Shown: piece by piece, positions 4,109 through 59,000 of the stretch
Layout: each line of letters starts with the position of its first letter
Position numbering within the stretch: position 1 is the stretch's first letter
From: a virus
Lineage: Duplodnaviria > Heunggongvirae > Uroviricota > Caudoviricetes
Direction: 5' to 3' (one strand)
Virus record (IMG/VR): IMGVR_UViG_3300019378_000003
DNA: 64,000 nucleotides
The notes under the pieces: generated by a model
Told to the model about the DNA's origin: nothing
Database searches by the model: none
What the model saw: the letters and a program-made list of their open reading frames with translations, nothing else
Position numbers and translations under genes: made by a program

Positions 4109-5851
4109 ATGGCTTTATAGGATTTATTAAACCTTTCACAAGATAGATAGAAAATTGGATTATCAGAAGAACGAGTAAGGGCTATTATTCCTGTTGCTCG
4201 CGACTATATTTCTTACTGGCGTGAATATCCAGATATGTTCGTCGACTTTATGGCGGGTAAGTGGCAAGCCAACCCGCCTAAAGAGACGCTTAATCTATTC
4301 TTCTACCAGCGAGTATTTTTGAGAGCCGCTATGCGTTATAAATACGTATATGCGGTTTTTCCGCGTGCTTATTCTAAATCTTTCCTTGCCGTTTTGATTC
4401 TTATGACTCGTGCCGTTTTATATGCCGGCTCTAAGTTATTTGTAACATCTGGTGGTAAGGAACAGGCTTCTGGTATTCTAAAAGAAAAAGTATAGGAAAT
4501 TTGTACTTTGGTGCCGGGCTTCGCAAAAGAGATTGATTGGGGCCGTGGTAAAACTTTGGAAGGTAAGGATTATTGTAAGTATATTTTTAAAAGTGGTTCT
4601 TATATTGATAACTTGGGCGCTTCTGAAAAATCAAGAGGTAAGCGTCGTCATGGCGGACTCGTTGAAGAGTGCGTTGGTGTCGACGGAACTATTTTGAACG
4701 AAGTTATTATTCCAGTTATGAACGTTTCTCGAAGATTGCCCGATGGCACTTCTGATGATAATGAAGTTCTTAATAAGAGCCAAATCTTTGTTACGACCGC
4801 AGGTTGGAAGAATACTTTTGCTTATGATAAACTTATTCAAATGCTAGTTGGTTAGATTACACAGCCTGAAAAGTTCTGTATTATGGGTGGTACTTGGCGT
4901 ATTCCTGTTCTTATGAAATTACTTGATAAGAACTTTGTGCGCGACTTGAAATTGGACGGTACATTTAATGAGTCCTCTTTTGAACGTGAATATGAATCTA
5001 AATGGTCTGGTACTATCGAAGATGCATTCTTCCGTGCAGAACAATTTGACCGCAACCGCATTCTACGTCAGCCTGAATATGAATATTCCGGACGTTCAAT
5101 TAAATCGGCATATTATGTTCTGTCTGTTGACGTTGGCCGAAAAGGTTGCGATACGGTAGTTTGTGTATTTAAAGTAACACCTTAGACTGCCGGTGTGTCT
5201 ATTAAAACATTGGTAAACATTTATACACTTCACAATGAACACTTTGAAGATTAGGCTATTGCACTCAAAAAACTTTATTATAAATATAAGGCGCGTCGTA
5301 TTGTTATTGACGCCAATGGTCTTGGTATTGGTCTTGTCGACTATATGGTAAAATCTTAGATGGACCCAGATACGAATGATATTTATCCTGACTTTGGTGT
5401 AGAAAATGATCCCGATGCTGAATATAAAAAGTTCCGCACAGATGCGTGTGAATATGATGCTATGTATTTGATTAAAGCTAATGCGCCAATCAATACTGAA
5501 GCTCATGCCAATGCGTAGACGCAACTTTCCTCTGGTAAAGTAAAAATGTTAATAGATGAACGTGTGGCCAAAGTAAAATTGCTTGGAACTAAACGCGGTC
5601 AAGAAATGAAGCCTGAAGAAAGGGCGGAATATCTTAAACCATTTACCCTTACCTCCATATTGAAAGAGGAAATGATGAATTTGCGTGAAGAAAATGAAGG
5701 CGTAAATATCATCTTAAAGCAAGCGAATAAAGGTATAAAAAAGGATAAATTTTCTGCTTTTGAATATGGTTTATACTATATTAAATAGGAAGAAGATAGT
5801 AAAAAGCGTAAACGAAAAGGAAAAATATCTGATTTTATGTTTATGAATTAA
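4109..5851 (+). CDS. terL: Terminase large subunit, 580 aa, ~9 in-frame TAG.
   Basis: Six track ORFs (4235, 4508, 4883, 5546...) are all in frame 2 and separated only by TAG. The gene ends in TAA at 5849-5851, followed by AAGGAGG plus ATG. ATPase-like N-terminus reads ...FLRAAMRYKYVYAVFPRAYSKSFLAVLILMTRAV...LFVTSGG. RNaseH-like nuclease region reads ...YYVLSVDVGRKGCDTVVCVFKV...RRIVIDANGLGIGLVDYM. Confidence 0.8.
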
Positions 5852-6232: not shown

Positions 6233-7831
6233 TTGCGAAGAAGATAGGATGAAATCCGAGCAAAAGGATTTTAGATGACACCTCGCCCAATAGACTATGA
6301 AGGCCCCATGTCTTCCATGGATTTCGCCAAGATTAGAGTTGGTCTTTAGACTCTTGATGATGCTATTTTGGATCTTGGTAGTTTAAAAAAGGGTAATGTC
6401 CGTTATACAAATAAGAATACAATTCTTAAGGCTTTGGCCGAAAGAGATTATCCATTGCTACGAGAGATTTCAGAATACTGGTTTGAAAACAGTGGTATTT
6501 ATGAACGTCTTTGTAAGTATTTTGCTTATCTATATAGATATGACTGGTATGTTGTTCCTTATGTTGAGGATGACAGCATTAAAGAAGATAAAATACTTGC
6601 TGAATTTAGTAAAGTGCTAAATTATATGGACGCTTCAAATATAAAATACATGTGTGGTAATATTGCCCTTGAAGTCGTAAAGAATGGCTGTTATTATGGC
6701 TATATTGTAGACAGCGAAGGTGGTATTACTATTTAGCAATTGCCGATTGGATATTGCCGCAGTAGATACTTTGTTGGCAATCAGCCCGCAGTTGAATTTA
6801 ATATGAAATTCTTCGACGATAAATTTCCAAACCTTGAATATCGCATGCGCGTATTGAAAATGTTCCCGCCAGAATTTGCTAAGGGTTATGTTCTTTATAA
6901 AAAGGGTAAACTCAAGGATGAAGATGGAACAGGTTCTGATGGATGGTATCTATTAGACCCAGCTTGTGCGATTAAGTTAAATATTTGCGGCACTGACTAT
7001 CCTATGTTGGTTAATGCGATTCCATCTCTTTTGGATTTGGATGCCGCGCAGGATTTAGATCGTCGTAAGACAATGCAGAAACTTCTCAAAATTATTATTC
7101 AAAAATTGCCGCTTGACAAGAATGGCGATTTGATTTTCGACGTTGATGAAGCAAAAGACATTCATAATAATGCCGTTCAAATGTTAAAGAAGGCAGTTGG
7201 TGTTGACGTTCTTACTACTTTTGCTGATGTAGAAGTTGCCGATTTGGCTGATAAGAATACTACAACTTCAACTGACGATTTGAATAAGGTTGAACGTACT
7301 GTTTATAATGCTCTTGGCGTTTCACAGAATCTTTTCAATACTGATGGTAATATCGCTCTTGAAAAGTCTATTCTTAACGACGAAGCATCTATGAGAAGTC
7401 TTATTTTACAGTTCTAGAATCTTTTAAATAAGATTGTTAGACATAAATTCCCTGGGAAGAAGAAATATAATTTCCGCGTCTTTATGTTGGAGACGACAGT
7501 CTACAACTACATCGAGCTTGCGAAGATGTATAAAGAGCAGGTTACTATTGGTTATTCCAAGATGTTGCCACAAATTGCTATGGGACATTCCCAGAGTGCA
7601 GTTATTGCTAATGCTCATTTTGAAAATGAAATTCTACATCTTTATGAAATTATGATTCCTCCTATGATGTCTTCCACTATGAAAGGTGAGGACATTTTAG
7701 GGCAAAAAGGTCAGGGGAAAAATTAGGTAAATTAGGCACAGTCTACTGAACAATCAAAAGGTGGACGTCCTGAAAAGCCGGATGGTCAAAAATCTGAAAA
7801 GACCATTCAAAATAAGGAGTCAGCCAGCTGA
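6233..7831 (+). CDS. Portal protein (candidate), ~532 aa, ~7 in-frame TAG.
   Basis: TTG 6233 lies 8 nt after GGAGG (an alternative start is ATG 6275). Track ORFs 6368, 6740 and 7484 are all frame 2. The gene ends at TGA 7829-7831. Size, position after terL and the acidic LDLDAAQDLD... segment fit a portal. Confidence 0.55.
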
Positions 7832-7854
7832 TGGCTGAGGGAGGAAGTTAGATA

Positions 7855-9255
7855 ATGCATATTAGTATTCCAGTCGAACATACTATTGAATTGCTTAACT
7901 TCACTCCCATAAACCCCCTTATTTCCAAGTGCGAAATTAAGGTGTGTTATGTGGGAGAAGACCCTAATAGAAACCGTAGTATTATTACTAAGGCGGTAGC
8001 CACAGATATGGCTAAGACCTTGCCGGGTTCGCCAATTGTAGGTTACTATAATGAGGCGAAAGGTGACTTCGAGGAACACAATCGTATGATTGATGTTTCT
8101 AATGGAAAATTTAATATTATCGATACTACCCGCCCATATGGTTTTGTTGATTTAGGGGCTAAAGTCTGGTTCCAAAAATTCTTGGATGATGGAATAGAGC
8201 ATGAGTATCTTATGACCGAAGGTTATATTTGGTCTGATATTTATCCAGAATCTAAGCGGATAGTTGAAAAAGGAAATAACCAGTCTATGGAACTTCATAA
8301 TAAACTAACCAAAGGAACTTGGACGACTGATGATAATGGAATGCCAAAGTTTTTCATTATCAACGAAGCAATTATCTCAAAACTTTGTATTCTTGGAGAA
8401 GACGTCGAACCTTGTTTCGAGGGTGCTGGTATTGCCGCACAATTCTCCATTGATGGGGACTTTAAAGCTAAGCTTTTCTCCATGATTGAGGAATTGAAGA
8501 CAGCTTTACAAGAAGGAGGAGCTACTCATATGGAAAAGAATGAGAACATCATGATTGAGAACGAAAATCAGGAAACTGAAATCGTCCTTGATAATCAGGA
8601 TGAATTCAAGAAAAAGTCCAAAGAGGAAGAGGAAGAAGAAGAAGAAAAGAAACCTCCTTTCCCTCCAAAGAAGGACGATGAATCCGAAGGCAAGTCTGAA
8701 GAGTCTAAAGAAGACGATGAAGATGATGACGAGGATAAGAAAAAGAAGAAAAAGATGAATCATGCTAAGGAAAATGAAGAGGAAGACGAGGAAAAGTGCC
8801 CTGATTGTGGCAAGCCAAAGTCTGAATGTACTTGTGAAGAAGATAAGAAAAAGAAGTACAACCTTGAAGAGATTCCTGAGTATGTAGAACTCGCTAAGGA
8901 ATATGCACTCGCAACTGCTCGTGTAGCAGAGCTTGAAGCTGAAATTGCTCCTTTGCGTGAGTTCAAAACTGCCGCTGATAAGAAAGAAAAGGAAAATATG
9001 ATTAATAGTTTCTATATGCTTTCTGATGAAGATAAGGCAGATGTTTTGGCCAACATTGATACATACAGCTTGGATGATATTGAAGCAAAGTTGGCAATTC
9101 TATGTGTTCGTAACAAGGTAAGCTTTAGCCTTGACGAAGATAATAAAGAAGAAGCTGAAGCAAGTCTTATTTATAATGTGACTGCTGAAGACGGCAATGA
9201 CAATGCACCAGCTTGGATTAAAGCTGTGCGTGATACTGCCAAAAACATGATTTAA
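7855..9255 (+). CDS. Head morphogenesis protein, possibly a protease/scaffold-type. 466 aa, no TAG.
   Basis: GGAGG then ATG 7855, ending at TAA 9253-9255. It has a globular N-terminal ~240 aa, an extreme E/K/D low-complexity block (EEEEEEEEKKPPFPPKKDDESEGKSEESKEDDEDDDEDKKKKKK), a CPDCGKPKSECTCEE motif, and a coiled-coil C-terminus (ELEAEIAPLREFK...). Confidence 0.4.
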   Translation: MHISIPVEHTIELLNFTPINPLISKCEIKVCYVGEDPNRNRSIITKAVATDMAKTLPGSPIVGYYNEAKGDFEEHNRMIDVSNGKFNIIDTTRPYGFVDLGAKVWFQKFLDDGIEHEYLMTEGYIWSDIYPESKRIVEKGNNQSMELHNKLTKGTWTTDDNGMPKFFIINEAIISKLCILGEDVEPCFEGAGIAAQFSIDGDFKAKLFSMIEELKTALQEGGATHMEKNENIMIENENQETEIVLDNQDEFKKKSKEEEEEEEEKKPPFPPKKDDESEGKSEESKEDDEDDDEDKKKKKKMNHAKENEEEDEEKCPDCGKPKSECTCEEDKKKKYNLEEIPEYVELAKEYALATARVAELEAEIAPLREFKTAADKKEKENMINSFYMLSDEDKADVLANIDTYSLDDIEAKLAILCVRNKVSFSLDEDNKEEAEASLIYNVTAEDGNDNAPAWIKAVRDTAKNMI

Positions 9256-9273
9256 TTAAGGAGGAAGCTTAAA

Positions 9274-9963
9274 ATGGCTTTTAAGAGTTTATCACAGGCC
9301 AAGATGGTTAAGCGTGGTTTTGGCCAGGTTGAACCCAATCACCTTAGCGCACGCTTTACTGGTGAAATTTACGGCCAGCTCCCAGCAAAGGCTGATATCG
9401 AAGTCCTTGAGCAGGGTCAGTTCGTAAAGTATAATTATGCTGCTGGTGTTGTTGATTTCGAGGGTCCCGGTGAGTGGATGCTTGTTAACAACGAAATTAA
9501 GATTTATCGTGATCATCAGACTGATGAAGATTTCGCTATGATTAAGCGCGATTATAATGCTTATGTTTATAGCCCAATCGGTCAGAATTCTGACGGTTCT
9601 ATGGCAGAAGCCGATCTTACTAAGAATTTCTCTCAAGAGAAGTATCCTTATGACGGCGATCTTCCACGTCTCCCAATTGGTCCTTCCTACGAGCGCGAAG
9701 TTCTTGAAGTTCCCGCTTACATGAAGGCTGGCGAAGTCATGGTTCCACGTGTATGGAAGACCCATGAAGGCGATATCTTTACCACTAACATGGTTCAGGC
9801 TACTTTTGATGAAGTTAAAGTTGGCGATTTCCTTAAGATTGGCGAACAGGGCATTTTGACTCCTGGCGGCGATATTGAGGCTGACAAGATGGTATGGCAG
9901 ATTGTTAAGAAGTACACCCTTCCTGACCTTCAGCCTGCTGTTAAGGTAATGCGCGTTAAGTAA
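9274..9963 (+). CDS. Hypothetical head protein, 229 aa, no TAG.
   Basis: AAGGAGG then ATG 9274, ending at TAA. It lies between the scaffold-like gene and the capsid candidate. Confidence 0.4.
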   Translation: MAFKSLSQAKMVKRGFGQVEPNHLSARFTGEIYGQLPAKADIEVLEQGQFVKYNYAAGVVDFEGPGEWMLVNNEIKIYRDHQTDEDFAMIKRDYNAYVYSPIGQNSDGSMAEADLTKNFSQEKYPYDGDLPRLPIGPSYEREVLEVPAYMKAGEVMVPRVWKTHEGDIFTTNMVQATFDEVKVGDFLKIGEQGILTPGGDIEADKMVWQIVKKYTLPDLQPAVKVMRVK

Positions 9964-9987
9964 TTTAGGAAAGGAGAGTATATAGCT

Positions 9988-11031
9988 ATGTTAGAAAGAA
10001 ATGAACTTTTGAAATTGATGCAGGCTACTGCTAAAGCTGATCGCTCCAATCCTGTTGCTTACAGCTTTAACGGTGAGAACCTTTCTTACGAGGCTCTTAA
10101 TGAGACTCTTCGTAAGGAATTGAATGAGTACGCTGGTACTTATGCACTTTATCGTGAAAATAAGAATATGATTTTCTCCCTTATCGAGGAGACTATTGAC
10201 CTTGTTCTTCCCAAGAAGGTTATGGAAAACTATGGTCAGTTTGCAGAAACCAAAGTTTACAAGCAGGGCGACAAGCCTATCTTTACCGTGAAGGGCAACT
10301 ACCACAATCGTGCCAAGCAGTTCATTACCAAGGTTGGCTTGAATGGTATTTACGAAGTCTTCAAGCTTGGTAAAGAGCGTCCTTTCGAACTTCAGACCAG
10401 CGCTATCGGCGGAGCCGCAGCAATTGGTTTCGAAGAGTTCCTTGATGGTCGTGTTGACTTTGCAGAAGTTACCAAGATCGTTATGGAAGGTATGGATGAA
10501 CTTATCTATCGTGAGATTGCTAAGGCTCTTATGAGCTCTATCAATCAGCTTCCTCGTGCAAATCAGGTTGCCGCAGCTGGCTTTGATGAGGCTGCTTTCG
10601 ACCGTTTGTTGAGCGTTGCTTCCGCATACGGCACTCCTTCCATCTATTGTACCTATGAGTTTGCTGTTAAGATGATTCCTGCTGAAGGCTGGATCTCTGA
10701 CGCTATGCGTGATGAGAAGTGGGCAAAGGGCTACTTCGCAAACTACAAGGGCTATCGCGTTGTAATTCTTCCTCAGGCTTTCGAGGATGAAACCAACGAG
10801 AAGAAGATGGTTGATCCTGGTTATGTTTGGATTCTTCCTACCGGCCACGACAAGCCCGTTAAGGTTGCTTTCGAAGGCGATACTTTGGTTCAGGAAATGC
10901 ATACCCATGACCGTAGCCGTGAAATCCAGGTTTACAAGAAAGTTGGCGTTGGCGTAATTACCAGCCCTGACATTTGCGTATATCAGGATACCGAGCTTCT
11001 TGGTCAGATGGACGTTGTTCGCGCTATCTAA
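9988..11031 (+). CDS. Major capsid protein (candidate), 347 aa, no TAG.
   Basis: AAAGGAG then ATG 9988, ending at TAA, followed by a strong intrinsic terminator. The call rests on size, position, TAG-free coding and the terminator. No motif was verified. Confidence 0.45.
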   Translation: MLERNELLKLMQATAKADRSNPVAYSFNGENLSYEALNETLRKELNEYAGTYALYRENKNMIFSLIEETIDLVLPKKVMENYGQFAETKVYKQGDKPIFTVKGNYHNRAKQFITKVGLNGIYEVFKLGKERPFELQTSAIGGAAAIGFEEFLDGRVDFAEVTKIVMEGMDELIYREIAKALMSSINQLPRANQVAAAGFDEAAFDRLLSVASAYGTPSIYCTYEFAVKMIPAEGWISDAMRDEKWAKGYFANYKGYRVVILPQAFEDETNEKKMVDPGYVWILPTGHDKPVKVAFEGDTLVQEMHTHDRSREIQVYKKVGVGVITSPDICVYQDTELLGQMDVVRAI

Positions 11032-11054
11032 TGAATAGAGGTTTATAAATACTG

Positions 11055-11086
11055 AGGGTGGGTCTAGCACCCACCCTTATTTTTTG
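11055..11086 (+). terminator. Rho-independent terminator.
   Basis: GGGTGGGT-ctagc-ACCCACCC hairpin followed by TTATTTTTT. Confidence 0.7.
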
Positions 11087-11105
11087 AGAAAAAGGAGTTT
11101 GTACT

Positions 11106-11675
11106 ATGGAAAATATTAACAAGGTTGCGGTAAAAAACCGCAGTAATTCTACTGTCGTATATTCTATCCCTGAGATGAATATCCGTCGTGAGTACGCACC
11201 CGGCGAGACTAAGAAAATCGCCAAAGAAGAAATTGAGGCACTTACTTATCGTTCTGGTGGTGCGAATTTAATTCAACGCTTTTTGGTTGTAGACCAAGAG
11301 ACACTTAATGATATCTCTATGAATGTTGAGCCTGAATATTGGCTTGATGATGAAGGCGTAAAGAAACTTCTTACTGAAGGTTCTCTTGATGCTTTCTTGG
11401 ATTGTTTGGATTTTGCACCTGCCGGTGTAATTGACCTTGTTAAGAAGCATGCTGTTGCGCTACCTCTTAACGATGTAGAAAAGCGTAAGGCTTTAAAGAA
11501 AGCTACTGGCTTCGATGTAGATACCATTCTGCGCAATAAGCAGTTGGCTGAAGAAGAAGATAGCAAGATTGAACCCGCCGCTCCACAGCGTCGCGTAAAG
11601 CCTGCGGCAACAGAAGGCCGTAGAACAACTCCCCAATACAAGGTTGTATCAGTACAAAAGCCAGAAGGAGAGTAA
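11106..11675 (+). CDS. Hypothetical protein, 189 aa, no TAG.
   Basis: AAAAGGAG then ATG 11106, ending at TAA 11673-11675. Confidence 0.4.
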   Translation: MENINKVAVKNRSNSTVVYSIPEMNIRREYAPGETKKIAKEEIEALTYRSGGANLIQRFLVVDQETLNDISMNVEPEYWLDDEGVKKLLTEGSLDAFLDCLDFAPAGVIDLVKKHAVALPLNDVEKRKALKKATGFDVDTILRNKQLAEEEDSKIEPAAPQRRVKPAATEGRRTTPQYKVVSVQKPEGE

Positions 11676-11680
11676 TCAAT

Positions 11681-12151
11681 ATGGCGACATCCTTTGAAAC
11701 TATTACAAATAAGTTTCTCGGTAAAATTACCGATGATATGTATTTAGAACTCACCCCAGAAGATACTTTGAGAGACGCTAAATCATTTCTATTGGATGCC
11801 ATTCCTTATTTTGAATTTCCTCGTTTTGCTTTGTATGATTACAACGTAGAGTTGGAAGAATATAATATAGATTTAACCGACGAGGAAATTAACATTCTTG
11901 CTTTGTTGATGAAAACAGCATGGCTTGAACGTTAGATAAATTCTGTTGAACACACTCGAATGAAATATTCCGGCTCTGATTTTAAAATGACCTCTCAAGC
12001 CAACCATTTGTCGAAGCTTTTGCAGTTGAAATCAGAGAATGTTCGTGAGTCTACTCACGCACAGCGTCTTTACAAAAGACGTAAGTTTAATGAAGACGGA
12101 ACGGTTTCTTCAAACTGGTCATGTTTGTTGGATACCAGCGCTATTGAATGA
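11681..12151 (+). CDS. Head-tail connector/adaptor candidate, 156 aa, 1 in-frame TAG.
   Basis: GAAGGAGAG then ATG 11681. Track ORFs 11681 and 11960 are in the same frame, separated by a TAG at 11933. The gene ends at TGA 12149-12151, overlapping the next start (ATGA). Function is positional only. Confidence 0.35.
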
Positions 12152-12450
12152 TTACTACTTATGGTGGCAATTTTCAAGAGGAACTAATTCGAGTGGATTT
12201 ACGCAGACTCATTAATCAGACTTGGAAGTTACTTCCAATGAAAGAAAATAATGAGGACTGGCAAAAATAGTTAGATACAGTCTTAAATGAATTATATGGT
12301 TTGCATGAGATCTTTGGCGGTCAACTCAACTTTCTCGTCTTGCTTTCTAAGCTTGAGGGATTGCCGCAAATCGATAATTTTATGTCTTATAGAGTAATCG
12401 TGTTCGGAGCAATTTCTTTGCTTACTGAACTGATGAACGGATTGAATTAA
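12148..12450 (+). CDS. Hypothetical head-tail joining protein, 100 aa, 1 in-frame TAG.
   Basis: ATG 12148 overlaps the upstream TGA. The gene ends at TAA 12448-12450, overlapping the next ATG (TAATG). It is invisible in the standard-code ORF track because of the TAG at 12268. Confidence 0.35.
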
Positions 12451-13394
12451 TGGAAAATTTGAATCTGTTAAAATTGCGTGCGAAGCATGCCAATAATGAT
12501 CGCCAGCATGATCGCATGGTTAAAGATAAATTGCGTTCTCTTCATCGCGCTTTATTATATTCTTATCAAACAGCGTGGATTAAAAAAGATGGAGTAGAAG
12601 ACGCAGACTATGTTCGTGCTTTAATCAATCCTGATAAAGTAAAATTCGATTATGATGAAAAAATTGTATCAGTCGAATACGAACATGGCTTTGGACCTGG
12701 AGACACTTTTGAATGGAAAAATACTGGAACGCACTGGATTATTCTTAAACAAGAGATGACTGAAGTTGCTTACTTCCGTGGTAATGTCCGTAGATGTCAA
12801 GAACTTTTAATTACTGATCCTGAAACTGGTGATAAAGTTAGCATTTGGGCAGCAGTGCGTGGTCCTGTTGAAACTAAATTAAATACAATTCAAAAAGCGG
12901 GATTAGTAGCCAATGTGCCGAATATGACACTACAATTGTATATTCCGAAAACGGAATAGAATATGCGTTTATTTGAACGATATGTTACTTTTGAATTTGG
13001 TGGACGTTTTTGGCAGATTGTTGCTCCTGATACTATTAGTACTCCAGGAATCATCGAAATTCCTGCTGTTGAAGACTATGAATGTCATCACAGCGATTTA
13101 TTGGTGGAAGTGGTAGATCCTAATCCTCCAGTTGAAGAATATGAAGATACTATTGAAGGCGAAACTTTTGTAAAGCCTTTAGAGCAATCTATTTATACTG
13201 TAACATCTTATAATCCTAATCTTAATTGGGTTGTAACTTTAGCATCAGACAATAAAGATGTTGAAGATACAGTTGAATGGGAAATTCGAGAAGATGGTTC
13301 AATTGCTGTTACTTGGATTTCAATGGTTAGTGGATCTTATGTATTAAAATATGGAGATCTTGAAAAGACCATTATTGTATAGTCACTGTTCTAA
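12450..13394 (+). CDS. Hypothetical head-tail joining protein, 314 aa, 2 in-frame TAG.
   Basis: Track ORFs 12450-12959 and 12963-13382 are in the same frame, separated only by a TAG at 12957. A further TAG at 13380 is read through to TAA 13392-13394. Confidence 0.4.
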
Positions 13395-13405
13395 GGAGGG
13401 ATAAA

Positions 13406-14149
13406 ATGAACCCTCTAATGTTAATGACTGGTGTTGATATTCCATTTCCAGAAATTTAGATGGCTGTTCATTAGCCAACAATTCTAGAAATCTCATATAT
13501 TGGAGAATTGAATTATTTTGCGGGCCTTCAATTATTATGTATTGATAAAAATACATTAGTGTTAAGTTCTGCAGAGGACAATTCTAGATTAGGTTCTATG
13601 AGTAATTTTTAGATATTTATGACAATGATGACTGAACAACAACCTGGCATGGAGGACAAAAAGGCACAAGTTATTTAGGTTTTTGAATTACTCTTCCCAG
13701 GCTATCGTGTTCAGTTTACTCCAAGATGCCTATTTTTTAATAATGGCCAAGGTTCGTCTTTCACTCTTGATGATGTAACTTTTGAGAAATTTCAAGAAAT
13801 ACTTAAACCGCAAGTTTCTATTTTTAAAGGTGCTGATGGTGGTTATAATCCCGTTGGTAGAAAAGCATAGGAAATTGCGAATAAGTTAATGAAGGGTAAA
13901 CAAAAGGTTGCTGAATTGAAAGGTGAAACTCGTAATCAAGGTGGCATTTTGTCTAGATATGTTTCTATTCTCACAATAGGTCTAAATACCATGTCATTTT
14001 AGGACTGTTTGAATTTGACTGTCTATCAAATGTTTGATCTGGTTGAAAGATACGGCCTATATGTCTCGTGGGATTTAGATATAAAGTCTCGGTTAGCTGG
14101 TGGCAAGCCAGAGGATAAACCCGATGACTGGATGAAAAATATACATTGA
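13406..14149 (+). CDS. Hypothetical tail-proximal protein, 247 aa, several in-frame TAG.
   Basis: AAGGAGGG then ATG 13406 in frame 2, ending at TGA 14147-14149. There is no track ORF because of the TAG density. Confidence 0.35.
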
Positions 14150-14171
14150 TTATTAAAGGAGGAAACAACCA

Positions 14172-15233
14172 ATGAAATTTGGCGTACGCGAAATTTGTGA
14201 CGTAGTATTACGTCGTAAGGCCGCTGGTTGGTTCGGTAAGCTTTATTTGGAAAAGGACATGCCTGTTCTTTTCTTTGATACTTTGAAGACCTCTAACCTT
14301 GAAGGCGCAGCTACTACTGTTTATGCTCAGGGTGGTAAAGGTAATCCTCGTCTTGTTGCTTGGGAAGGTGACCGTACCGTTACTTTCACTATGGAAGACG
14401 CATTGATTAGTCCTCAGAGCTTCTCTATTCTTTCTGGTGCTGGTTTCATGGATGCTTCTAGTGAAAAAGCTATCTATGTTCACCAGACCGGTCAGCTTGA
14501 AATTAGTACTGATGGCAATTTGAATTTTGAAACCAAGCCTTCTGCTGGTGAAGCTGGTAAGTTTGCAGATATGTATTTGATGCTTTTGGATGAATATGGT
14601 AATATTAATACTAACTTCATGCCTATTATGATTAAGCCTGAAGGCCGTAGTGATAATGAACCTGGTGTTTATGCAGAATCTTATCCTGTAAATGGCGAAG
14701 GCGAAAGTCTTGTTAATAAGATTAAGGCTTTCATTGTAGATTATAATGAACGTAATAAAACTGTAAATGGTTTTAAGCCATTAGAGTATACTGTTAATGA
14801 AACTCTTATCAAGCCTACTGAAGATGCCTCTGTTGAAGAAATTGCTGCTTACAATAAGGCTAAAGCTAATAACATCGTTATTGGACCTGGTACTGTAGTT
14901 TTTGTTGACTATTATGTAAAGGCTGACACTGGTGTTAAGCAGATTGATATCGAAGCTGATAAGTTTGGTGGATCTTACTATCTTGAAGCTTCTACCTTGT
15001 TCCGTGATCAGGGTACTGGTGAAGACCATCCTGCAGAGTTCGTTATCCCGAACTGCAAGGTTCAGTCTAACTTTACCTTCACCATGGCTCCTTCCGGAGA
15101 TCCTTCTACTTTCACCTTCACAATGGACGCTTTCCCGGACTATACTAAGTTTGATCGCACTAAGAAGGTTCTTGCCGCACTTCAGATTGTTGAAGACAAG
15201 GCTGGCTTCGGCGCTCTTACTGCCAAAGCTTAA
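14172..15233 (+). CDS. Major tail (tube) protein candidate, 353 aa, no TAG.
   Basis: AAAGGAGG then ATG 14172, ending at TAA, followed by a strong terminator. The gene is TAG-free and lies upstream of the tape-measure region. Confidence 0.45.
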   Translation: MKFGVREICDVVLRRKAAGWFGKLYLEKDMPVLFFDTLKTSNLEGAATTVYAQGGKGNPRLVAWEGDRTVTFTMEDALISPQSFSILSGAGFMDASSEKAIYVHQTGQLEISTDGNLNFETKPSAGEAGKFADMYLMLLDEYGNINTNFMPIMIKPEGRSDNEPGVYAESYPVNGEGESLVNKIKAFIVDYNERNKTVNGFKPLEYTVNETLIKPTEDASVEEIAAYNKAKANNIVIGPGTVVFVDYYVKADTGVKQIDIEADKFGGSYYLEASTLFRDQGTGEDHPAEFVIPNCKVQSNFTFTMAPSGDPSTFTFTMDAFPDYTKFDRTKKVLAALQIVEDKAGFGALTAKA

Positions 15234-15251
15234 TTTTTAAACGTCAATATA

Positions 15252-15289
15252 GGGAGATACTAACTTTCGTTAGTATCTCCCTTTTTTTT
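15252..15289 (+). terminator. Rho-independent terminator.
   Basis: GGGAGATACTAAC-tttc-GTTAGTATCTCCC hairpin followed by T8. Confidence 0.75.
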
Positions 15290-15317
15290 ATTATATAGAT
15301 AAAAAGGAGATGCTTAT

Positions 15318-15851
15318 ATGCGAGTAGGACAAAATTATTTTCCAAAATCTAGTTTTTTATCAATTGATAAAAATTTAGCATTAATTGTTAATAAAATGCT
15401 AGAAAATCAAAGATTATGTAAATTATTATATTATACGTAGCGAGACTGTTTAAAAGCGGAAAATTTAACGCCCAAAGAAAAATTAAGTTTAATTGATAAT
15501 TAGATTAAAATTACTCCATATTTACCTATTGATTCAGATTGTCCTATATATGTTGTAATAACTTTTAATAGATTTTTACCAAATTATAAAAATCCTGAGT
15601 TCCGTGATTTTAATATAAAAATTGATATTATTTGTCATCCTGATCATTGGCATTTAGGTAATTTTGCTTTGCGCCCATATAAAATAGCTGGTGAAATTGA
15701 TGCTATGTTAAATAAAACTAAATTAACGGGTATCGGTGAAGTAGAGTTTCAAGGTGCAGACGATTTATTATTAAATGAATAGTTGTGTGGACTTACATTA
15801 ATTTATCGTACAGTTTAGGGTGTTGAAGATTAGATTAATCCATTGTCGTAA
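15318..15851 (+). CDS. Hypothetical protein, 177 aa, 5 in-frame TAG. Sits in the AT-rich island.
   Basis: GGAG then ATG 15318, ending at TAA 15849-15851. Reads ...PIYVVITFNRFLPNYKNPEFRDFNIKIDIICHPDHWHLGNFALRPYKIAGEIDAML... Confidence 0.35.
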
Positions 15852-15866
15852 GGAGGTGCCATAAAA

Positions 15867-17108
15867 ATGGCAGGTAGTGTATTTGGAGTTTCTGTTGAAG
15901 AAGCATTTGTAAGAAGTGGTACTGCAGAAGCTATAAAAGATAACCTTACTTCAATGAATGAAGTAAATAGAAGAATATTAAATAATAGTTGTACTATTTT
16001 AGATAATACTTTAAATGAAATTACTATACTTAAAGAATAGTTTATAGGGGAAAATCGTTTATCTAAAGAATATTCTAGAAGAATAGCAACTCGTAAAAAA
16101 GATTCGACAAAAGTAGAATATGGAAGAAAGTTATCAGAATTATTACTTTTAACAAAAAGTCATAAAGCTAAATTAAATCAAAAAATTATTTATGCATTTA
16201 AATTAGAACATAAAATTTTAGATATTTTATCAAACAATTAGACATAGACTGCTTTATTTTCAATATATTTTTATGGTGAAAATCCACAAGAGATTATGCG
16301 TGGAGAAATTAAAACTTCAGATTTATATAATTCAAAATATTTATATATTGATAATGCTGGTAACATTAAATTATCTGCTAAAGTTATTTAGGCAGAAGGA
16401 TTATTTTCAAAAATAACATCTTCTCGCTCTGTAAATGGAGCAATTTCTGATGTAGTTTGGGATGAGATGTTAGCAGCAGATTTAGAGGCATTAGTAGATG
16501 AAACATATAGTTTTTTAAAAGACGTATAGAATAAATATCAAGAAATAAAAGATACTGCATCTAAAAAGCATTTAGGTAATGAATTAGATGCATTACATGA
16601 TGTAACTCGAAAATTTTCAGAAGAATCAAATGCCATTATGTCATTAATTGAAGAAAAATAGGCTGCAATGTATAATTATTTATTCTATGATTAGGGGAAA
16701 AAACCTGCAGGTCGCTTAAACAGAGGTCATTTGGCAGAAGCTTATGAACATATTTATCAAGCAAGATTGGCGGGTCGTGAAGTACCATCAGCTTATGAAG
16801 CATTACAACGTTCATTGGGCGATGATCCATGGTATATCGGTGGTGACGTAGGCAATGTATAGGTTAAAGCTTTTTTTGACAATAATGATCGTCATATCGC
16901 TAGTTATACAAGTATTATATCTTTAGGAAAAACTTTGGTGCAAGTTGTGAAAAATACTGTTAATGCTTTGCAAGAAATTGCTACCGCAGGAACAGAAAGA
17001 ATATTATTAAAATAGCAATCAAATTTTAATAAAGCAAATAAAGTATTAGAGCAATGCACCAGAAAAGAAATTGAGACTATGATGAAAAATAATTTAAAAC
17101 AATCTTGA
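15867..17108 (+). CDS. Hypothetical protein, ~413 aa, ~12 in-frame TAG. Sits in the AT-rich island.
   Basis: AAGGAGG then ATG 15867, in one frame to TGA 17106-17108. The end of the gene overlaps the -35 box of the downstream promoter. I recognise no domain. Confidence 0.35.
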
Positions 17109-17787: not shown

Positions 17788-20700
17788 ATGGCTCAAGGAA
17801 CTACTTAGTGGACTTTGTAGATTAGTGCTGACACTAGTCGAGCTAAAAAAGATATTAATAATTTAGTATAGAGCTTAAATAAAGTTAATACACTAAATTT
17901 AGATTAGCTCGGTATGTCCACACAAATTCGTGAGGCTGCGACTGCTGCGCAATAGTTAAAATTGCATTTATAGGCAGCAACTAATGTCAATACTGGTCAA
18001 TTAAATCTTGTAGAATTTAATAAAAGTATTTAGCAATCAGGATAGTCAATGGCATCGCTTATGGCTACTTTGGCTCAAGGTGGTTAGACTGGTCAACAGG
18101 CATTCCAATAGATGGCAACTACTATTGCAAATACTTAGGTGCCGATAAAACAAACAAATAAATTATTATCTAATATGATGACAACTCTTAAAAATACTGT
18201 TAAGTGGGAATTGTCATCTATGTTTATTCGTGGTTTACGCACTTCAATCACTGGCGCTATTGGATATGTTAAAGATTTAAATGGTGCTTTAAATGATATC
18301 CGTATTGTTACAGGTAAAAGTGTTGAAGAAATGGCTCGTTTTACTGATCAGGCGCGTGCTGCGGCGAGGGAATTATCAACCACAACTAAAGCATTCACTG
18401 ACGCTTCTTTGATTTATTTCCAATAGGGTGACTCGATGGAAATGGCTGCTAAGAAAGCGGCGATTACTATTAAAGCAGCAAATGCCTCTTTTGGATCTAC
18501 GGCTTCTGAAATGGCAGAACATTTAACTGCTGTTTGGAATTCTTATCAAGTTGGCGCAGAAGAGTTAGAACATTATGTTGATATAATGGCGAAGCTTGGT
18601 GCGAACACTGCAACCAGTATGGAAGAAATTGCTACTTCAATGCAAAAAGTTGCTGCTACTGCGAATACTGTTGGCGTTTCTATGGAACAAGTTTCTTCGA
18701 TTATTGCCACGGTATCTTCTGTTACTCGCGAATCTGCAGAATCAATTGGTACTTCTTTTAAAACAATTTTTGCTCGTATTGGTGACTTAAAATTAGGAGA
18801 GACTCTTGAAGACGGTGTAGATCTTGGACAAGTATCTTCTGTTTTAGATAAAATTGGAGTTTCTATTTTAGATGCCAATGGGCAAATGCGAGACATGGGC
18901 GCAATCGTTGAAGATTTAATGGGAAAATGGCAGACTATGACTCGAGCAGAGCAAACTGCTGTGGCATAGGTTGTAGCTGGTAAGCGTCAATATACTCAAT
19001 TAATTGCTTTAATGGAAAATGATGAAGCGTATAAAAAAAATAAAAGTTTAGCAGAGAATTCTGATGGTGCACTGCAAGGAATGCAAGATATTCATGCTGA
19101 AAGTGCTGAAGCTGCAGCTGCGCGCACGAAAGAATCTATTTAGACTTTATATAGTACGCTTTTAAATGATAAAGCTTTGATTGGTTTTTAGAAAACAATT
19201 AAAGGTATTGTTGATAATGTTACTAATTTAGCTAAATCATTAGGTGGTCTTAAAGGCATAGTAGGAGCAGTTGGTGCGATTTTAATGCGTACATTTAGTG
19301 GAAAAATTGCTTCTACTATTAAATCAATGGGTGCTGGTATAGCTACTTTTATGACAAATGGTTCATATAAATAGTAGTATTTACAGACTTTAGAGAGGAC
19401 TAATAGTGAATTATCAAATAGTCGCAGTTGGGGAGATACAGCTTCTTTATAGGCTACTAGCAAATTAATTGACTTAAAAAGCAAATTGCTTAATATGGAA
19501 AATTCTTTAACAACAGCACAAGCTCAGCAAATGCAGTTAGCTTTAAGTGGAGCAAGCGAACAAATTGGTACTTTAAATTAGTTAGAACAAGAATACTTAG
19601 ATGTCAAAAGAGCAATTGAATCTGGTACTAGCAGTATGGCTGGTTGGGCAGCGCAAACTTATTAGGTTAAATAGAAACATAATACGGTAAACATGACATT
19701 TAACAAATAGCTTGCAGCACAAATGAGTAGTTAGCATTTTATGAAGGGATCAGGCGACAATAGAATGTCTGCAGGAGGATTCTTTTCTGAGAATGCAATA
19801 CTTAAGGCTAATAATGGGGCGACTGCTGCGAATATGTTGCCACAAATTAATTAGTTAAATCAAATTTCGTCTATTGGACAACAAACTGCCAGAGCTTTAG
19901 AGTAGATTTAGAATCCAGCAAAATTGACTGAATAGGAATTTGCCAAAATTACACAATAGGTTGAGCAGATGAAAGCTGCTTTAAAAGGTACCGCTCGAGC
20001 AAATGCTTTAGATGGAATTACAGCAGAAACATTAAGAACAAAAGAAGGTATTAAATAGTTAAGTGACGCAATTACTTTATTAAATGAAAAATCTCAAACT
20101 GATTTTAATGGATTTACTACGGCTTTTAGGGCGGCATTGAACGCTATGCCTGATGGTGCCTTGAAAACTAGATTAAGTACTTTATTTGATGAATTTTTGA
20201 AAGATTCTGATCATGGTGCAGAAGCACTCTAGCGCTTTAGGTTACAAGCTGAGGCAGTAATGGGTAGTTTGAGTGGTACTGAATCTGCGTTAGATAAACT
20301 AAATGGAAAAATGAATCAAGCCTTTGGTGCGATTAGCAAAGGTGTTGGTACTGCAATGAGTGCAGTATCTGGATTTAATATGCTATCTTAGAGTACTTAG
20401 CAATTAGCCTCTGGTAGCGATAATTTAAGTAGTAATATCGCGACATTGTTGAGTGGTTTAATGATGATTATTTCCATTGCACCTGCTATTGGTACAGCAT
20501 TGACTACTGCGATGGGCCCAATCGGTTGGATTATTGGTGCAATTGCGGCGATTGGTGTTGCAGTTGCGGCAGTTACTGTTGGTATTAGTAAAGCTAGAAA
20601 AGAAGCGTATCAAGCTAAACAAGAATCTAAATTAGAAAAAATTTAGGAAGAAAATGAAATACAAAATGAAGAAGTAAATAATAATCATAATTTAATTAAA

Positions 20701-58775: not shown

Positions 58776-59000
58776 ATGAAAAAAGTTATATTATATCAAT
58801 ATGTAAATGATAACAATGAAGTGGTAGTAACTACTGAGCCGATGTCAGAAACATCGGCTCAGATCTTCTATCTTTTAACTGCGGACGAAGGTTATTATTT
58901 ATATAATAAAAAATTACATCATAAAAGGAAGTCTACAATTACTTCCGATTATCTTGCAGATAATTGGGAAGAATTAAAATAGAAAGAAGGAAATGAGTAA
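58776..59000 (+). CDS. Small hypothetical protein, 74 aa, 1 in-frame TAG.
   Basis: ATG 58776, ending at TAA 58998-59000, which overlaps the next ATG. Confidence 0.35.

What the first reader, a model, noticed from the sequence alone, without database searches (positions are those of the whole stretch)
7855..15233. TAG is excluded from the highest-expression virion genes but saturates the tape-measure, fiber, terminase and portal genes.
The scaffold-like gene (466 aa), the 9274 gene, the capsid candidate (347 aa), the 11106 gene and the major tail protein (353 aa) contain zero TAG. So do two fibers (47141, 59000) and 35411. That is about 2300 codons with none. The tape-measure gene has roughly one TAG per 35-40 codons, and terL has 9 in 580 codons. 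Tandem TAG-TAG pairs occur at 19369-19374 and 6085-6090. This is non-random. The two explanations predict different TAG-codon and tRNA features. One is translational-efficiency selection against a codon read by a lower-abundance suppressor tRNA. The other is a regulatory split where TAG-containing genes wait for the suppressor. Leftward genes (1-702, 1396-1731) and the first rightward genes also contain TAG, so recoding is not confined to a late module.
Basis: seen in the sequence. Interest (0 to 1): 0.75.

Follow-up and report, generated by a model that had tools for sequence, protein, structure and literature searches.

The report
Recoded TAG avoided in high-copy virion genes
In this gut phage that reads the stop codon TAG as glutamine, TAG is missing from the capsid and tail-tube genes because those genes use only the best-translated codons, which is ordinary codon-usage selection acting on a reassigned stop codon and not a special regulatory switch.

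Summary
The window is a TAG-to-Gln (code 15) large siphovirus, related to phAss-1 and with an SPbeta-like virion module. Its 35 rightward genes hold 238 TAG, 449 CAA and 135 CAG. A uniform model fails even after allowing for Gln content (G=104, 34 df, p=5e-9).

The TAG-free genes are the HK97-fold major capsid protein (9988), the YomU-type tail tube (14172) and two neighbours (9274, 11106). They write Gln almost only as CAG. They also top the main axis of synonymous codon usage computed without Gln codons: AAG, TTC, CTT, CGT, ATC against AAA, TTA, AGA, ATA. That axis absorbs the TAG heterogeneity (residual p=0.16).

All 24 independent recoded relatives show the same depletion (1.3 vs 16 TAG per 1000 codons). 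Four standard-code relatives show the same codon bias in the same genes. In low-bias genes TAG/(TAG+CAG)=0.78, close to TTG/(TTG+CTG)=0.86, which looks like mutational equilibrium.

Translational selection is therefore the best explanation. A timing split inside the late module is not supported. The claims for gene 7855, the two fibres and 35411 are weak. The leftward module is almost TAG-free (2 of 66 Gln codons).

The parts
9988..11031 (+). Major capsid protein gene (family named YonB, HK97 fold). 0 TAG, 0 CAA, 12 CAG. Highest score on the codon-bias axis.
   Evidence: Counts. PC1 1.59. The AF2 model matches only HK97-fold capsids and encapsulins (220 hits at E<=1e-3). PF27364 YonB. Orthologues in 24 recoded lineages carry 3 TAG in 8287 codons.
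14172..15233 (+). Tail tube (major tail) protein gene, family named YomU_Tube. 0 TAG, 0 CAA, 8 CAG.
   Evidence: Counts. PF27173 YomU_Tube. N-terminus matches genes annotated 'major tail protein' in Bacillus Tsamsa-like phages. Orthologues carry 5 TAG in 5907 codons. My own AF2 model was poor.
9274..9963 (+). Head-module gene of unknown function directly upstream of the capsid gene (scaffold or decoration protein by position only). 0 TAG, 1 CAA, 11 CAG.
   Evidence: PC1 1.20. Orthologues carry 10 TAG in 5056 codons. No Pfam, NCBIfam or PDB match.
11106..11675 (+). Gene of unknown function directly downstream of the capsid gene. 0 TAG, 4 CAA, 2 CAG. Moderately biased.
   Evidence: PC1 0.77. Orthologues carry 13 TAG in 4164 codons, and 18 of 24 lineages have none.
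7855..9255 (+). TAG-free here with only 6 Gln codons. Not TAG-free in relatives.
   Evidence: Orthologues carry 76 TAG in 11788 codons, and none of 23 loci is TAG-free. Start confirmed.
11053..11079 (+). Terminator-like hairpin with a T-run directly after the capsid gene.
   Evidence: A comparable element follows the capsid gene in 26 of 28 lineages and almost no other head gene.
15251..15282 (+). Terminator-like hairpin (14 bp stem) with a T-run directly after the tube gene.
   Evidence: Found in 10 of 21 lineages by a strict criterion.
4109..5851 (+). Large terminase gene, 9 in-frame TAG.
   Evidence: Weak phrog_5909 match plus two half-length PHROGs. Orthologue of the phAss-1 TerL.
6275..7831 (+). 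Portal gene, 5 in-frame TAG.
   Evidence: phrog_2739 at 9e-81. Counts.
11681..14149 (+). Four genes between the capsid and tube genes (11681, 12148, 12450, 13406) with 1, 1, 2 and 6 TAG. They show that TAG-rich and TAG-free genes are interleaved.
   Evidence: Orthologues carry 17-31 TAG per 1000 codons.
15318..17108 (+). Two genes after the tube gene (YomW family, and one unknown) with 5 and 9 TAG and the lowest codon-bias scores.
17788..29175 (+). Tape measure gene, 3795 codons, 92 in-frame TAG (92 TAG / 153 CAA / 16 CAG).
   Evidence: Homologous to the phAss-1 ORF that Babkin et al. call the tape measure.
50014..51687 (+). 1 TAG, 5 CAA, 18 CAG, with capsid-like codon bias.
   Evidence: (PC1 0.72).
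47141..48373 (+). Tail-tip or fibre gene, TAG-free (9 Gln codons). Not individually significant.
59000..60349 (+). Fibre-like gene, TAG-free (5 Gln codons). Not significant.
   Evidence: p=0.18.
35411..35797 (+). Small tail-module gene, TAG-free (9 Gln codons) but with low codon bias. Consistent with chance.
   Evidence: PC1 -0.32.
1988..2920 (+). Sigma-factor-like first rightward gene with 2 TAG (2303, 2507), behind a perfect TTGACA-17-TATAAT promoter at 1804-1832.
1..1731 (-). Leftward genes. 1-702 has a TAG at codon 21. 1396-1731 has a TAG 7 codons before its TAA. 1083-1412 has none. They belong to a leftward module that is otherwise TAG-free.

Best explanation
TAG is a bona fide Gln codon in this phage, but a translationally poor one.

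In most late genes synonymous sites drift with the phage's A+T mutation bias. CAG is converted to TAG by C-to-T changes until TAG/CAG sits at the same ratio as other first-position T/C synonymous pairs.

In the few genes whose products are needed in hundreds of copies per virion, selection holds every amino acid on its best-decoded codon. These are the capsid protein, the tail tube and two neighbouring head genes, and to a lesser degree a coiled-coil fibre. For Gln the best codon is CAG. TAG is purged there along with ATA, CGA, CGG, AGG, GGG, AAA and TTA.

Shown here: the depletion, its tie to a Gln-independent codon-bias axis, its conservation, and its presence in relatives that never recoded.

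Inferred: that the axis reflects expression level. Also inferred is the source of the cost of TAG. TAG is decoded only by a phage-encoded tRNA(CUA), whose anticodon is a poor GlnRS identity element, as with E. coli supE, and the host release factor RF1 may compete for it.
For: (1) TAG is Gln. TAG positions align with Gln in standard-code relatives in 57% of pairs, against 58% for CAA as a control.

(2) PCA of synonymous usage excluding Gln gives a PC1 with 40% of the variance. It ranks 9988, 9274, 14172, 11106, 50014, 7855 and 46447 on top. Spearman correlation of PC1 with TAG/Gln is -0.72 (p=2e-6).

(3) Adding PC1 to a logistic model gives LRT 59.9 (p=1e-14). The residual dispersion is then binomial (chi2 40.8, 33 df, p=0.16).

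(4) The axis is not simply GC3. T-ending CTT, CGT, GTT and GCT rise, while G/C-rich CGG, GGG, CCG and AGG fall.

(5) In 24 recoded lineages dereplicated at 95% capsid-gene identity, the four genes carry 1.3 TAG per 1000 codons against 16.0 in their neighbours. All 24 of 24 lineages agree (sign test 1e-7).

(6) Four standard-code lineages show the same bias in the same genes. Their CAG fraction is 0.62-0.82 against 0.16-0.37 elsewhere. Codon shifts correlate at r=0.75 with the recoded lineages.

(7) In low-bias genes TAG/(TAG+CAG)=0.78, against TTG/(TTG+CTG)=0.86 and TTA/(TTA+CTA)=0.90. In high-bias genes the figures are 0.05 against 0.52.

(8) TAG's depletion (log-odds -2.75) falls within the class of the worst codons: CGA -3.2, CGG -3.2, ATA -2.8, GGG -2.5.

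(9) An independent expression proxy. Terminator-like hairpins sit directly after the capsid and tube genes. They are conserved after the capsid gene in 26 of 28 lineages.

(10) Gene identities: HK97 fold and YomU_Tube.

(11) Precedent. Reassigned stop codons are used less in highly expressed ciliate genes (PMC10553269).
Against: - No expression or proteomic data exist for this phage. 'Highly expressed' rests on protein identity, codon bias and terminators.
- The host and its tRNA pool are unknown. MAG labels are inconsistent, so I could not test whether the preferred codons match abundant host tRNAs.
- phAss-1 carries three tRNA(CUA) genes against one each for Gln-CUG and Gln-UUG. This does not fit a simple 'scarce suppressor' picture.
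- The functions of 9274 and 11106 are unknown.
- TAG is depleted about 6-fold more than the other non-preferred Gln codon CAA (odds ratio 0.16, p=3e-32). TAG therefore carries some extra cost whose nature is not established.
- I found no within-gene position skew and no +4 context skew relative to a TTG control, either of which would point to RF1 competition.
Confidence: 0.75

Rival explanations
1. Regulatory split inside the late module. TAG-free genes (capsid, tube) can be translated before the suppressor tRNA accumulates. TAG-bearing genes (sigma factor, terminase, portal, tape measure) wait for the code switch, so bulk subunits pile up before assembly initiators appear.
For: - At module level the pattern proposed by Borges et al. 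does hold. The leftward module has 2 TAG in 66 Gln-like codons, against 238 of 822 rightward.
- In phAss-1 all tRNAs, including three tRNA(CUA), lie among leftward replication genes.
- The first rightward gene is sigma-factor-like, carries 2 TAG, and sits behind a perfect host-type promoter.
Against: - The same genes carry the same codon bias in four lineages that never recoded. The split therefore does not depend on recoding.
- TAG density is fully predicted by a Gln-independent codon-bias axis.
- In TAG-bearing genes TAG sits at the mutational-equilibrium ratio and scales with Gln content. It shows no 5' enrichment (first fifth of the gene holds 16%; mean relative position 0.53). A gate would need only one early TAG.
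- TAG-free and TAG-rich genes are interleaved on one strand with short gaps.
- Procapsid assembly needs portal first, so making capsid protein earlier has no obvious use (inference).
Confidence: 0.1
2. Neutral accumulation. TAG simply builds up in fast-evolving or weakly constrained genes (tail, tape measure) and has not had time to appear in conserved genes. A preprint on infant-gut recoded phages suggested this (10.1101/2023.08.07.552389).
For: - The TAG-richest genes are tail genes with the lowest GC3 (0.13-0.19).
- That preprint reports more SNPs in TAG-bearing genes.
Against: - Protein divergence does not track TAG. TerL orthologues are 69% identical and carry 14 TAG per 1000 codons. Tube orthologues are 48% identical with 0.4 per 1000. 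Orthologues of 9274 are 45% identical with 1.3 per 1000.
- CAG, the one-step precursor of TAG, is most abundant exactly where TAG is absent: 572 CAG against 31 TAG.
- Lineages differ by 17-34% in capsid protein sequence, so synonymous sites should be saturated (inference).
- The bias includes T-ending optimal codons, so it is not just composition.
Confidence: 0.07
3. Mosaicism. The TAG-free genes were recently imported from standard-code relatives with a different codon usage.
For: Standard-code and recoded lineages are interleaved in a rough NJ tree.
Against: - Imports would affect terminase and portal as often as capsid and tube. Yet all 24 of 24 recoded lineages show the depletion in the same four genes, in conserved synteny.
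- The TAG-free genes form two blocks separated by TAG-rich genes.
- Standard-code relatives themselves show the bias only in these genes.
Confidence: 0.03

Closest known systems
phAss-1 and the proposed Phassvirus group (Babkin et al. 2023, PMC10607447; NCBI 'Caudoviricetes code 15 clade')
   Same: - A large Bacillota-type siphovirus with TAG read as Gln.
- TAG occurs in TerL, portal, tape measure and fibre genes.
- The head module is syntenic and the capsid protein is 51% identical.
- In phAss-1 the capsid gene (0 TAG / 0 CAA / 15 CAG) and the tube orthologue (0/2/12) are also TAG-free.
   Different: - The window's phage is a different, more distant lineage. An identical public contig is about 169 kb, and the tape measure is 3795 aa against 3149.
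- The paper lists which ORFs carry TAG but does not analyse depletion or codon bias.
Stop-codon recoding as a late-gene regulator (Borges et al., preprint 10.1101/2021.08.26.457843)
   Same: TAG is concentrated in the structural module and nearly absent from the opposite-strand module. TAG is rare as a stop in standard-code relatives (3 of 61).
   Different: - That work tested only for gene families enriched in recoded stops. It found a tail tube family enriched in crAss-like phages.
- Here the tube and capsid genes are the most depleted. The within-module pattern follows codon optimisation, not timing.
Reduced use of reassigned stop codons in highly expressed genes of ciliates (PMC10553269)
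   Same: A reassigned stop codon behaves as a disfavoured synonymous codon where expression is highest.
   Different: That is a cellular genome with measured expression. Here it is a virus whose decoder is supplied by its own tRNA gene inside a standard-code host, and expression is inferred.
Selected codon-usage bias in bacteria and phages (Ikemura and Sharp type; C-ending Phe, Tyr, Ile and Asn codons as universal optimal codons). Recalled from general knowledge.
   Same: - The main synonymous axis separates the high-copy genes.
- TTC, TAC, ATC, AAC and CGT are preferred.
- ATA, AGG, CGA and CGG are avoided.
   Different: The disfavoured set includes a codon that is a stop signal for the host.
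Bacillus phage SPbeta virion module (Pfam families named YonB, YonD_N, YonG_N, YomU_Tube, YomV_2nd, YomW, YomO)
   Same: Seven window proteins fall in these families, in a comparable order.
   Different: SPbeta uses the standard code. Similarity is at family level only. The local Pfam copy did not contain these models, so membership rests on precomputed hits.

Membership tests
Code 15 (TAG to Gln) recoded Caudoviricetes | Long ORFs are restored when TAG is read as sense, but not when TGA is | tested here: met
   ORFs of at least 100 aa cover 53.7 kb (table 11), 82.0 kb (TAG sense) and 66.1 kb (TGA sense). The longest ORF goes from 840 to 3810 codons.
Code 15 (TAG to Gln) recoded Caudoviricetes | In-frame TAG aligns with Gln in homologues that use the standard code | tested here: met
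   57% Gln at TAG columns against 58% at CAA control columns, with the same spectrum of alternatives. A conserved Gln in PLISKC-Q-IKVCYV is TAG in many recoded lineages.
Code 15 (TAG to Gln) recoded Caudoviricetes | TAG is not used to terminate genes | tested here: met
   All 34 complete rightward genes and all 24 leftward genes end in TAA or TGA. In recoded relatives there are 328 stops and none is TAG.
Code 15 (TAG to Gln) recoded Caudoviricetes | A suppressor tRNA(CUA) is encoded by the phage | not testable with these tools
   There is no tRNA in the 64-kb window, in the 9 kb to its left, or within 10 kb of the capsid gene in 80 relatives. One is present on the contig of the closest IMG/VR relative (L106 4707-4799, inside an array of at least 25 tRNAs) and three in phAss-1. 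The rest of this genome could not be fetched.
Selected (translational) codon-usage bias | The main axis of synonymous variation separates the known high-copy genes | tested here: met
   PC1 holds 40% of the variance. The capsid gene, 9274 and the tube gene are on top.
Selected (translational) codon-usage bias | The preferred set is a specific codon set and not a uniform GC3 shift | tested here: met
   CTT, CGT, GTT, GCT, TTC, ATC, AAC and TAC rise. CGG, CGA, GGG, AGG, CCG and ATA fall.
Selected (translational) codon-usage bias | The bias is conserved in orthologues across lineages, independent of genetic code | tested here: met
   24 of 24 recoded lineages. Four standard-code lineages show the same genes and the same codons, r=0.75.
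Selected (translational) codon-usage bias | Preferred codons match the most abundant tRNAs of the host | not testable with these tools
   The host is unknown. MAG labels range over Clostridia, Lachnospiraceae, Erysipelotrichaceae, Bacilli and even Bacteroidales.
Selected (translational) codon-usage bias | The biased genes are the most highly expressed | not testable with these tools
   Proxies only: HK97 capsid fold, tube family, and conserved terminator-like hairpins after both genes.
Recoding as a late-gene timing gate (Borges model) | Early or replication module in standard code, structural module recoded | tested here: met
   Leftward module: 2 TAG in 66 Gln-like codons. Rightward: 238 of 822. 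phAss-1: 3.0 against 12.9 TAG per 1000 codons on the two strands.
Recoding as a late-gene timing gate (Borges model) | The TAG-free versus TAG-bearing split within the late module reflects timing and not codon optimisation | tested here: not met
   The split is predicted by a Gln-independent codon-bias axis. It exists in non-recoded relatives. TAG shows no 5' enrichment and sits at a mutational-equilibrium ratio.
Recoding as a late-gene timing gate (Borges model) | Lysis genes are preferentially recoded | not tested
   No lysis gene was identified in the window.
phAss-1-like / SPbeta-like large siphoviruses | Homologous, syntenic head and tail module | tested here: met
   Fifteen window proteins from 2924 to 17788 have their best hits in the phAss-1 head and neck module or its tape measure ORF, as do three tail proteins. 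Pfam Yon/Yom families. Capsid-gene relatives in Enterococcus, Bacillus, Clostridioides and Brevibacillus large siphoviruses.

The most novel reading that the evidence does not exclude
The optimal-codon, TAG-free class (all leftward genes plus capsid, tube and their partners) is a set of genes the phage can translate without its own tRNA array. The TAG- and TTA/AGA/ATA-rich class depends on phage tRNAs. The code switch would then act as a stoichiometry and assembly checkpoint. Bulk subunits would be made on host resources from the start of late transcription. The sigma factor, portal, terminase and tape measure, which nucleate or license assembly, would be throttled by suppressor supply.
Probability: 0.1. 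Interest if true: 0.65.

Novelty: new member of a known kind. Interest (0 to 1): 0.35.

Why it matters
TAG recoding in phages is usually read as a regulatory device. This family is large: 303 capsid-gene relatives in IMG/VR and thousands of homologous proteins in metagenomes. Recoded and standard-code lineages are interleaved in it, so it works as a natural experiment.

That experiment shows that most of the gene-to-gene variation in TAG use inside the late module is what mutation bias plus ordinary codon selection predicts. This sets a null model that any claim of TAG-based regulation should beat.

It has a practical side too. TAG-free capsid and tube genes are found intact by standard-code gene callers while their neighbours are shattered. 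That can mislead annotation and marker-gene surveys. Two PHROG families appear to be halves of the terminase.

It also ranks how costly a reassigned stop codon is. TAG is about as disfavoured as ATA, CGA and CGG.

Tried and rejected
- Pfam (local copy), NCBIfam and PDB sequence or profile searches gave nothing useful for 7855, 9274, 9988, 11106 or 14172.
- The AF2 model of the tube protein was poor in its conserved ends (pLDDT below 50), and Foldseek found nothing. Its identity rests on the precomputed Pfam name and on depositor annotations.
- I looked for a signature of release-factor competition. TAG has no 5' or 3' positional skew within genes. Its +4 base does not differ from a TTG control, whereas real stops have +4 T in 68%.
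- Tandem TAG-TAG is not enriched.
- I rejected protein conservation as the predictor of TAG and a plain GC3 or composition shift.
- I looked for the suppressor tRNA in the window, in the 9 kb to its left and in 80 relatives' capsid neighbourhoods, and found none. The rest of this genome could not be reached, because look-ups accept only window proteins.
- Host assignment from MAG labels was inconsistent.
- The start at 1850 (TTG) for the sigma-like gene is doubtful. The public gene call uses 1988. The TAG count is the same either way.

Full report
**What the window is.** The 64-kb window has 35% G+C and no tRNA gene. Reading TAG as sense raises the total length of stop-to-stop ORFs of at least 100 aa from 53.7 to 82.0 kb, and the longest ORF from 840 to 3810 codons. 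Reading TGA as sense has no such effect. Nearly all long ORFs are rightward and sit behind AAGGAGG-type ribosome-binding sites.

I called 35 rightward genes. Together they hold 20,216 codons, with 238 TAG, 449 CAA and 135 CAG. Every complete gene ends in TAA or TGA.

The closest named relative is phage phAss-1 (OQ749652), filed by NCBI under 'Caudoviricetes code 15 clade'. Its capsid protein is 51% identical and its head module is syntenic. Babkin et al. (PMC10607447) reported TAG in 41 of its 147 ORFs, including TerL, portal, tape measure and fibre genes, and three tRNA(CUA) genes.

Window positions 1-21031 are 100% identical to an ENA contig of 168,658 bp. Precomputed Pfam hits on that contig place seven window proteins in families named after the Bacillus SPbeta virion module: YonG_N, YonD_N, YonB, YomV_2nd, YomU_Tube, YomW and YomO.

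| Gene | TAG | CAA | CAG |
|---|---|---|---|
| 7855-9255 | 0 | 3 | 3 |
| 9274-9963 | 0 | 1 | 11 |
| 9988-11031 | 0 | 0 | 12 |
| 11106-11675 | 0 | 4 | 2 |
| 14172-15233 | 0 | 0 | 8 |
| 35411-35797 | 0 | 8 | 1 |
| 47141-48373 | 0 | 7 | 2 |
| 59000-60349 | 0 | 4 | 1 |

The tape measure has 92 TAG in 3794 codons, TerL has 9 and portal has 5.

A uniform model is rejected per codon (G=158.9, 34 df). None of 20,000 random allocations reached that value. The five head/tail genes pooled have 0 of 44 Gln-like codons as TAG, against 238 of 778 elsewhere (Fisher 3.7e-7).

Small corrections:
- The tandem TAG pairs are at 6091-6096 and 19372-19377, and they are not enriched (2 of 43 Gln-Gln dipeptides, 3.6 expected).
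- Once Gln content is considered, 7855, 11106, 59000, 47141 and 35411 are not individually significant.
- The start at 7855 is supported by orthologue N-termini. The public gene call at 7831 would add one TAG.

**What the TAG-free genes are.** An AlphaFold model of the 9988 protein (mean pLDDT 67) matches only HK97-fold shells, meaning phage capsids and encapsulins. There are 220 hits at E<=1e-3, so it is the major capsid protein.

The 14172 protein belongs to a family of at least 8000 metagenomic proteins, all carrying the Pfam family the collection names YomU_Tube. Its N-terminus matches genes annotated as major tail protein in Tsamsa-like Bacillus phages. My own model of it was too poor to use.

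Genes 9274 and 11106 flank the capsid gene and have no recognisable family. Scaffold or decoration roles are guesses from position.

By the usual ruler of about 1.5 A per tape-measure residue, a 3795-residue tape measure implies a tail of about 570 nm. That means several hundred tube subunits. A ~169-kb genome implies a capsid of several hundred subunits. These copy numbers are inference.

The two strongest terminator-like hairpins on the rightward strand lie directly after the capsid gene (11053-11079) and the tube gene (15251-15282). A comparable element follows the capsid gene in 26 of 28 related lineages, follows the tube gene in 10 of 21, and follows almost no other head gene.

The TAG-free genes do not merely lack TAG. 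They write Gln as CAG, while the rest of the genome prefers CAA and TAG. They also differ at every other amino acid:

| Measure | TAG-free genes | Tail genes |
|---|---|---|
| AAG share of Lys | 0.6-0.94 | about 0.1 |
| TTC share of Phe | 0.5-0.7 | about 0.1 |
| CTT share of Leu | 0.5-0.7 | about 0.15 |
| TTA share of Leu | below 0.1 | 0.6-0.8 |

A principal-component analysis of synonymous usage with Gln codons excluded gives a first axis holding 40% of the variance. Its top seven genes are 9988, 9274, 14172, 11106, 50014, 7855 and 46447. The axis correlates with TAG/Gln at rho=-0.72 (p=2e-6).

Its loadings are the classical optimal set. AAG, TTC, CTT, AAC, CAC, ACC, TAC, ATC, GTT and CGT stand against AAA, TTA, TTT, AAT, AGA and ATA. 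T-ending codons rise and G/C-rich CGG, GGG, CCG and AGG fall. It is therefore not a composition shift.

With this axis as a covariate, the TAG counts are no more dispersed than binomial (LRT 59.9; residual chi2 40.8 on 33 df, p=0.16). The fibre genes and 51765 fall where their intermediate bias predicts. Gene 50014-51687, an Ala-rich coiled-coil protein (1 TAG, 18 CAG), belongs with the biased set.

**Relatives.** A scan of IMG/VR with the capsid protein found 303 relatives, and 80 loci were fetched. Fifty-seven are TAG-recoded and 23 use the standard code. At 95% capsid-gene identity they collapse to 24 recoded and 4 standard lineages.

| Gene (24 recoded lineages) | TAG | Codons |
|---|---|---|
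| Capsid | 3 | 8287 |
| Tube | 5 | 5907 |
| 9274 | 10 | 5056 |
| 11106 | 13 | 4164 |
| TerL | 160 | 10909 |
| Portal | 180 | 12211 |
| 13406 | 149 | 4764 |

Every one of the 24 lineages shows a lower TAG/Gln in the four genes than in their neighbours.

Gene 7855 is not part of the conserved set: 7.1 TAG per 1000 codons, and no lineage is TAG-free.

The four standard-code lineages show the same bias in the same genes. CAG makes up 62-82% of Gln codons there against 16-37% elsewhere. The codon-by-codon shifts correlate at r=0.75 with those in recoded lineages. The bias therefore exists without recoding.

**How TAG behaves.** TAG columns align with Gln in standard-code relatives exactly as often as CAA columns do (57% against 58%).

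Going from standard to recoded lineages, low-bias genes change from 30.9 CAA and 11.4 CAG per 1000 codons to 25.4 CAA, 4.2 CAG and 16.0 TAG. High-bias genes hardly change: 11.1 and 28.0 become 13.3 CAA, 24.4 CAG and 1.3 TAG. TAG has thus mostly replaced CAG, its one-step neighbour.

In low-bias genes TAG/(TAG+CAG) is 0.78, close to TTG/(TTG+CTG)=0.86 and TTA/(TTA+CTA)=0.90. This is what mutational equilibrium under A+T pressure would give. In high-bias genes it is 0.05, against 0.52 for TTG/CTG.

TAG's depletion in the high-bias genes (log-odds -2.75) falls among the worst codons: CGA, CGG, ATA, GGG and AGG. It is about six-fold stronger than that of CAA.

I found no sign that termination at TAG is being dodged. 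There is no positional skew within genes, and the +4 base does not differ from a TTG control. A 92-TAG tape measure also requires read-through near 99% per codon, since 0.99^92=0.40 and 0.95^92=0.009. This last point is inference.

**Weighing the explanations.** The best reading is mutation-selection balance. TAG is a legitimate but poorly translated Gln codon. It drifts in wherever selection on codon choice is weak, and it is purged, with the other poor codons, from the genes translated most.

A timing split inside the late module is not needed and fits badly. The split exists in non-recoded relatives. TAG density scales with Gln content without 5' enrichment. The two classes are interleaved on one strand.

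Neutral accumulation in fast-evolving genes fails because protein divergence does not track TAG. TerL is 69% identical and TAG-rich, while the tube protein is 48% identical and TAG-free.

Import from standard-code phages fails because it would not single out the same four genes in 24 lineages.

At the scale of modules, however, the pattern described by Borges et al. does hold. The leftward module, extended 9 kb beyond the window on the identical contig, has 2 TAG, 15 CAA and 49 CAG in 24 genes, with AAG-rich usage. In phAss-1 the tRNA array, with three tRNA(CUA), lies among the leftward replication genes. The closest IMG/VR relative also carries a tRNA(CUA) in an array of at least 25 tRNAs.

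**Novelty.** Recoding in this clade is published. Lower use of reassigned stop codons in highly expressed genes is documented in ciliates (PMC10553269).

The phage papers I read did not examine depletion in high-copy genes or its link to codon bias: Borges preprint, Peters et al., Babkin et al., the Lak paper and the infant-gut preprint. Borges et al. even report a tail tube family enriched in TAG in crAss-like phages.

This is therefore a clean new example of a known principle, useful as a null model. It is not a new kind of system.

**Limits.**
- There are no expression data, the host is unknown, and the rest of the genome was out of reach.
- The functions of 9274 and 11106 are unknown.
- The neighbour-joining tree is rough.
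- The physical cause of TAG's extra cost over CAA is not established.

Noticed in passing
window 1764-1832 and 1988-2920: There is a perfect extended -10 sigma-70 promoter (TTGACA-17-TATAAT with TG) at 1804-1832. It faces a divergent 11/12 promoter at 1792-1764. The rightward one drives a sigma-factor-like gene (phrog_5767, 3.7e-53) that itself carries two TAG (2303, 2507). A second perfect promoter lies at 17105-17133.
   Followed up: partly
window 4109-5851: The terminase matches two PHROG families of 'unknown function' covering only its N-terminal (phrog_15503, residues 5-238) and C-terminal (phrog_24618, residues 354-580) parts. These look like families built from TAG-fragmented ORFs of recoded phages annotated with the standard code.
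   Followed up: no
window 5863-6219 and 1-702 (minus strand): A homing-endonuclease-like gene (phrog_9084, 8e-28; 3 TAG) sits between terminase and portal. The leftward gene 1-702 carries a similar C-terminal DUF2726 domain behind zinc-ribbon-like CxxC motifs.
   Followed up: partly
window 17788-29175: This is a 3795-codon tape measure ORF, longer than the 3149-3209 aa reported for phAss-1 and its relatives. It implies a tail of roughly 570 nm. A conserved hairpin with a T-run at 17727-17760 precedes it, and it follows the upstream gene in 20 of 20 relatives.
   Followed up: partly
window 50014-51687 (also 48388-49983): An Ala-rich coiled-coil protein with repeated 'AEADIDxLQ' motifs has capsid-like codon bias (18 of 24 Gln codons are CAG). 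This suggests a high-copy fibre or decoration protein.
   Followed up: no
L106 4707-4799; L116 7777-7866; L141 9078-9167; phAss-1 62442-62532: The tRNA(CUA) genes of relatives are 90-93 nt long, against 72-77 nt for the neighbouring tRNAs, with about 20 extra bases after the anticodon stem. This could be a long variable arm, an intron or an adjoining ribozyme. phAss-1 also has two ordinary-length tRNA(CUA) genes.
   Followed up: no
L141 7726-7805: ARAGORN calls a tRNA with anticodon TCA (labelled SeC) in the tRNA array of a TAG-recoded relative. That would be a possible UGA-reading tRNA in a phage that uses TGA as a stop.
   Followed up: no
loci L002-L081 (capsid-gene neighbourhoods): Standard-code lineages (L004, L052, L066, L076) are scattered among recoded ones in a rough NJ tree of TerL, portal and capsid proteins. 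This hints at several gains or losses of recoding. TAG terminates only 3 of 61 orthologous genes in the standard-code lineages.
   Followed up: partly
window 7942-7960 and orthologues: The conserved motif PLISKC-Q-IKVCYV near the N-terminus of the YonD_N protein has CAA or CAG in standard-code lineages and TAG in about half of the recoded ones. The window has Glu at that position.
   Followed up: partly
L208-L242 (genome contigs): Whole phage-sized contigs (124-176 kb) of this family are binned into MAGs labelled Clostridia, Lachnospiraceae, Erysipelotrichaceae, Bacilli, 'Mollicutes', Treponema, Bacteroidales and Gastranaerophilales. Most come from ruminant guts. These labels cannot be trusted as host assignments.
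   Followed up: no
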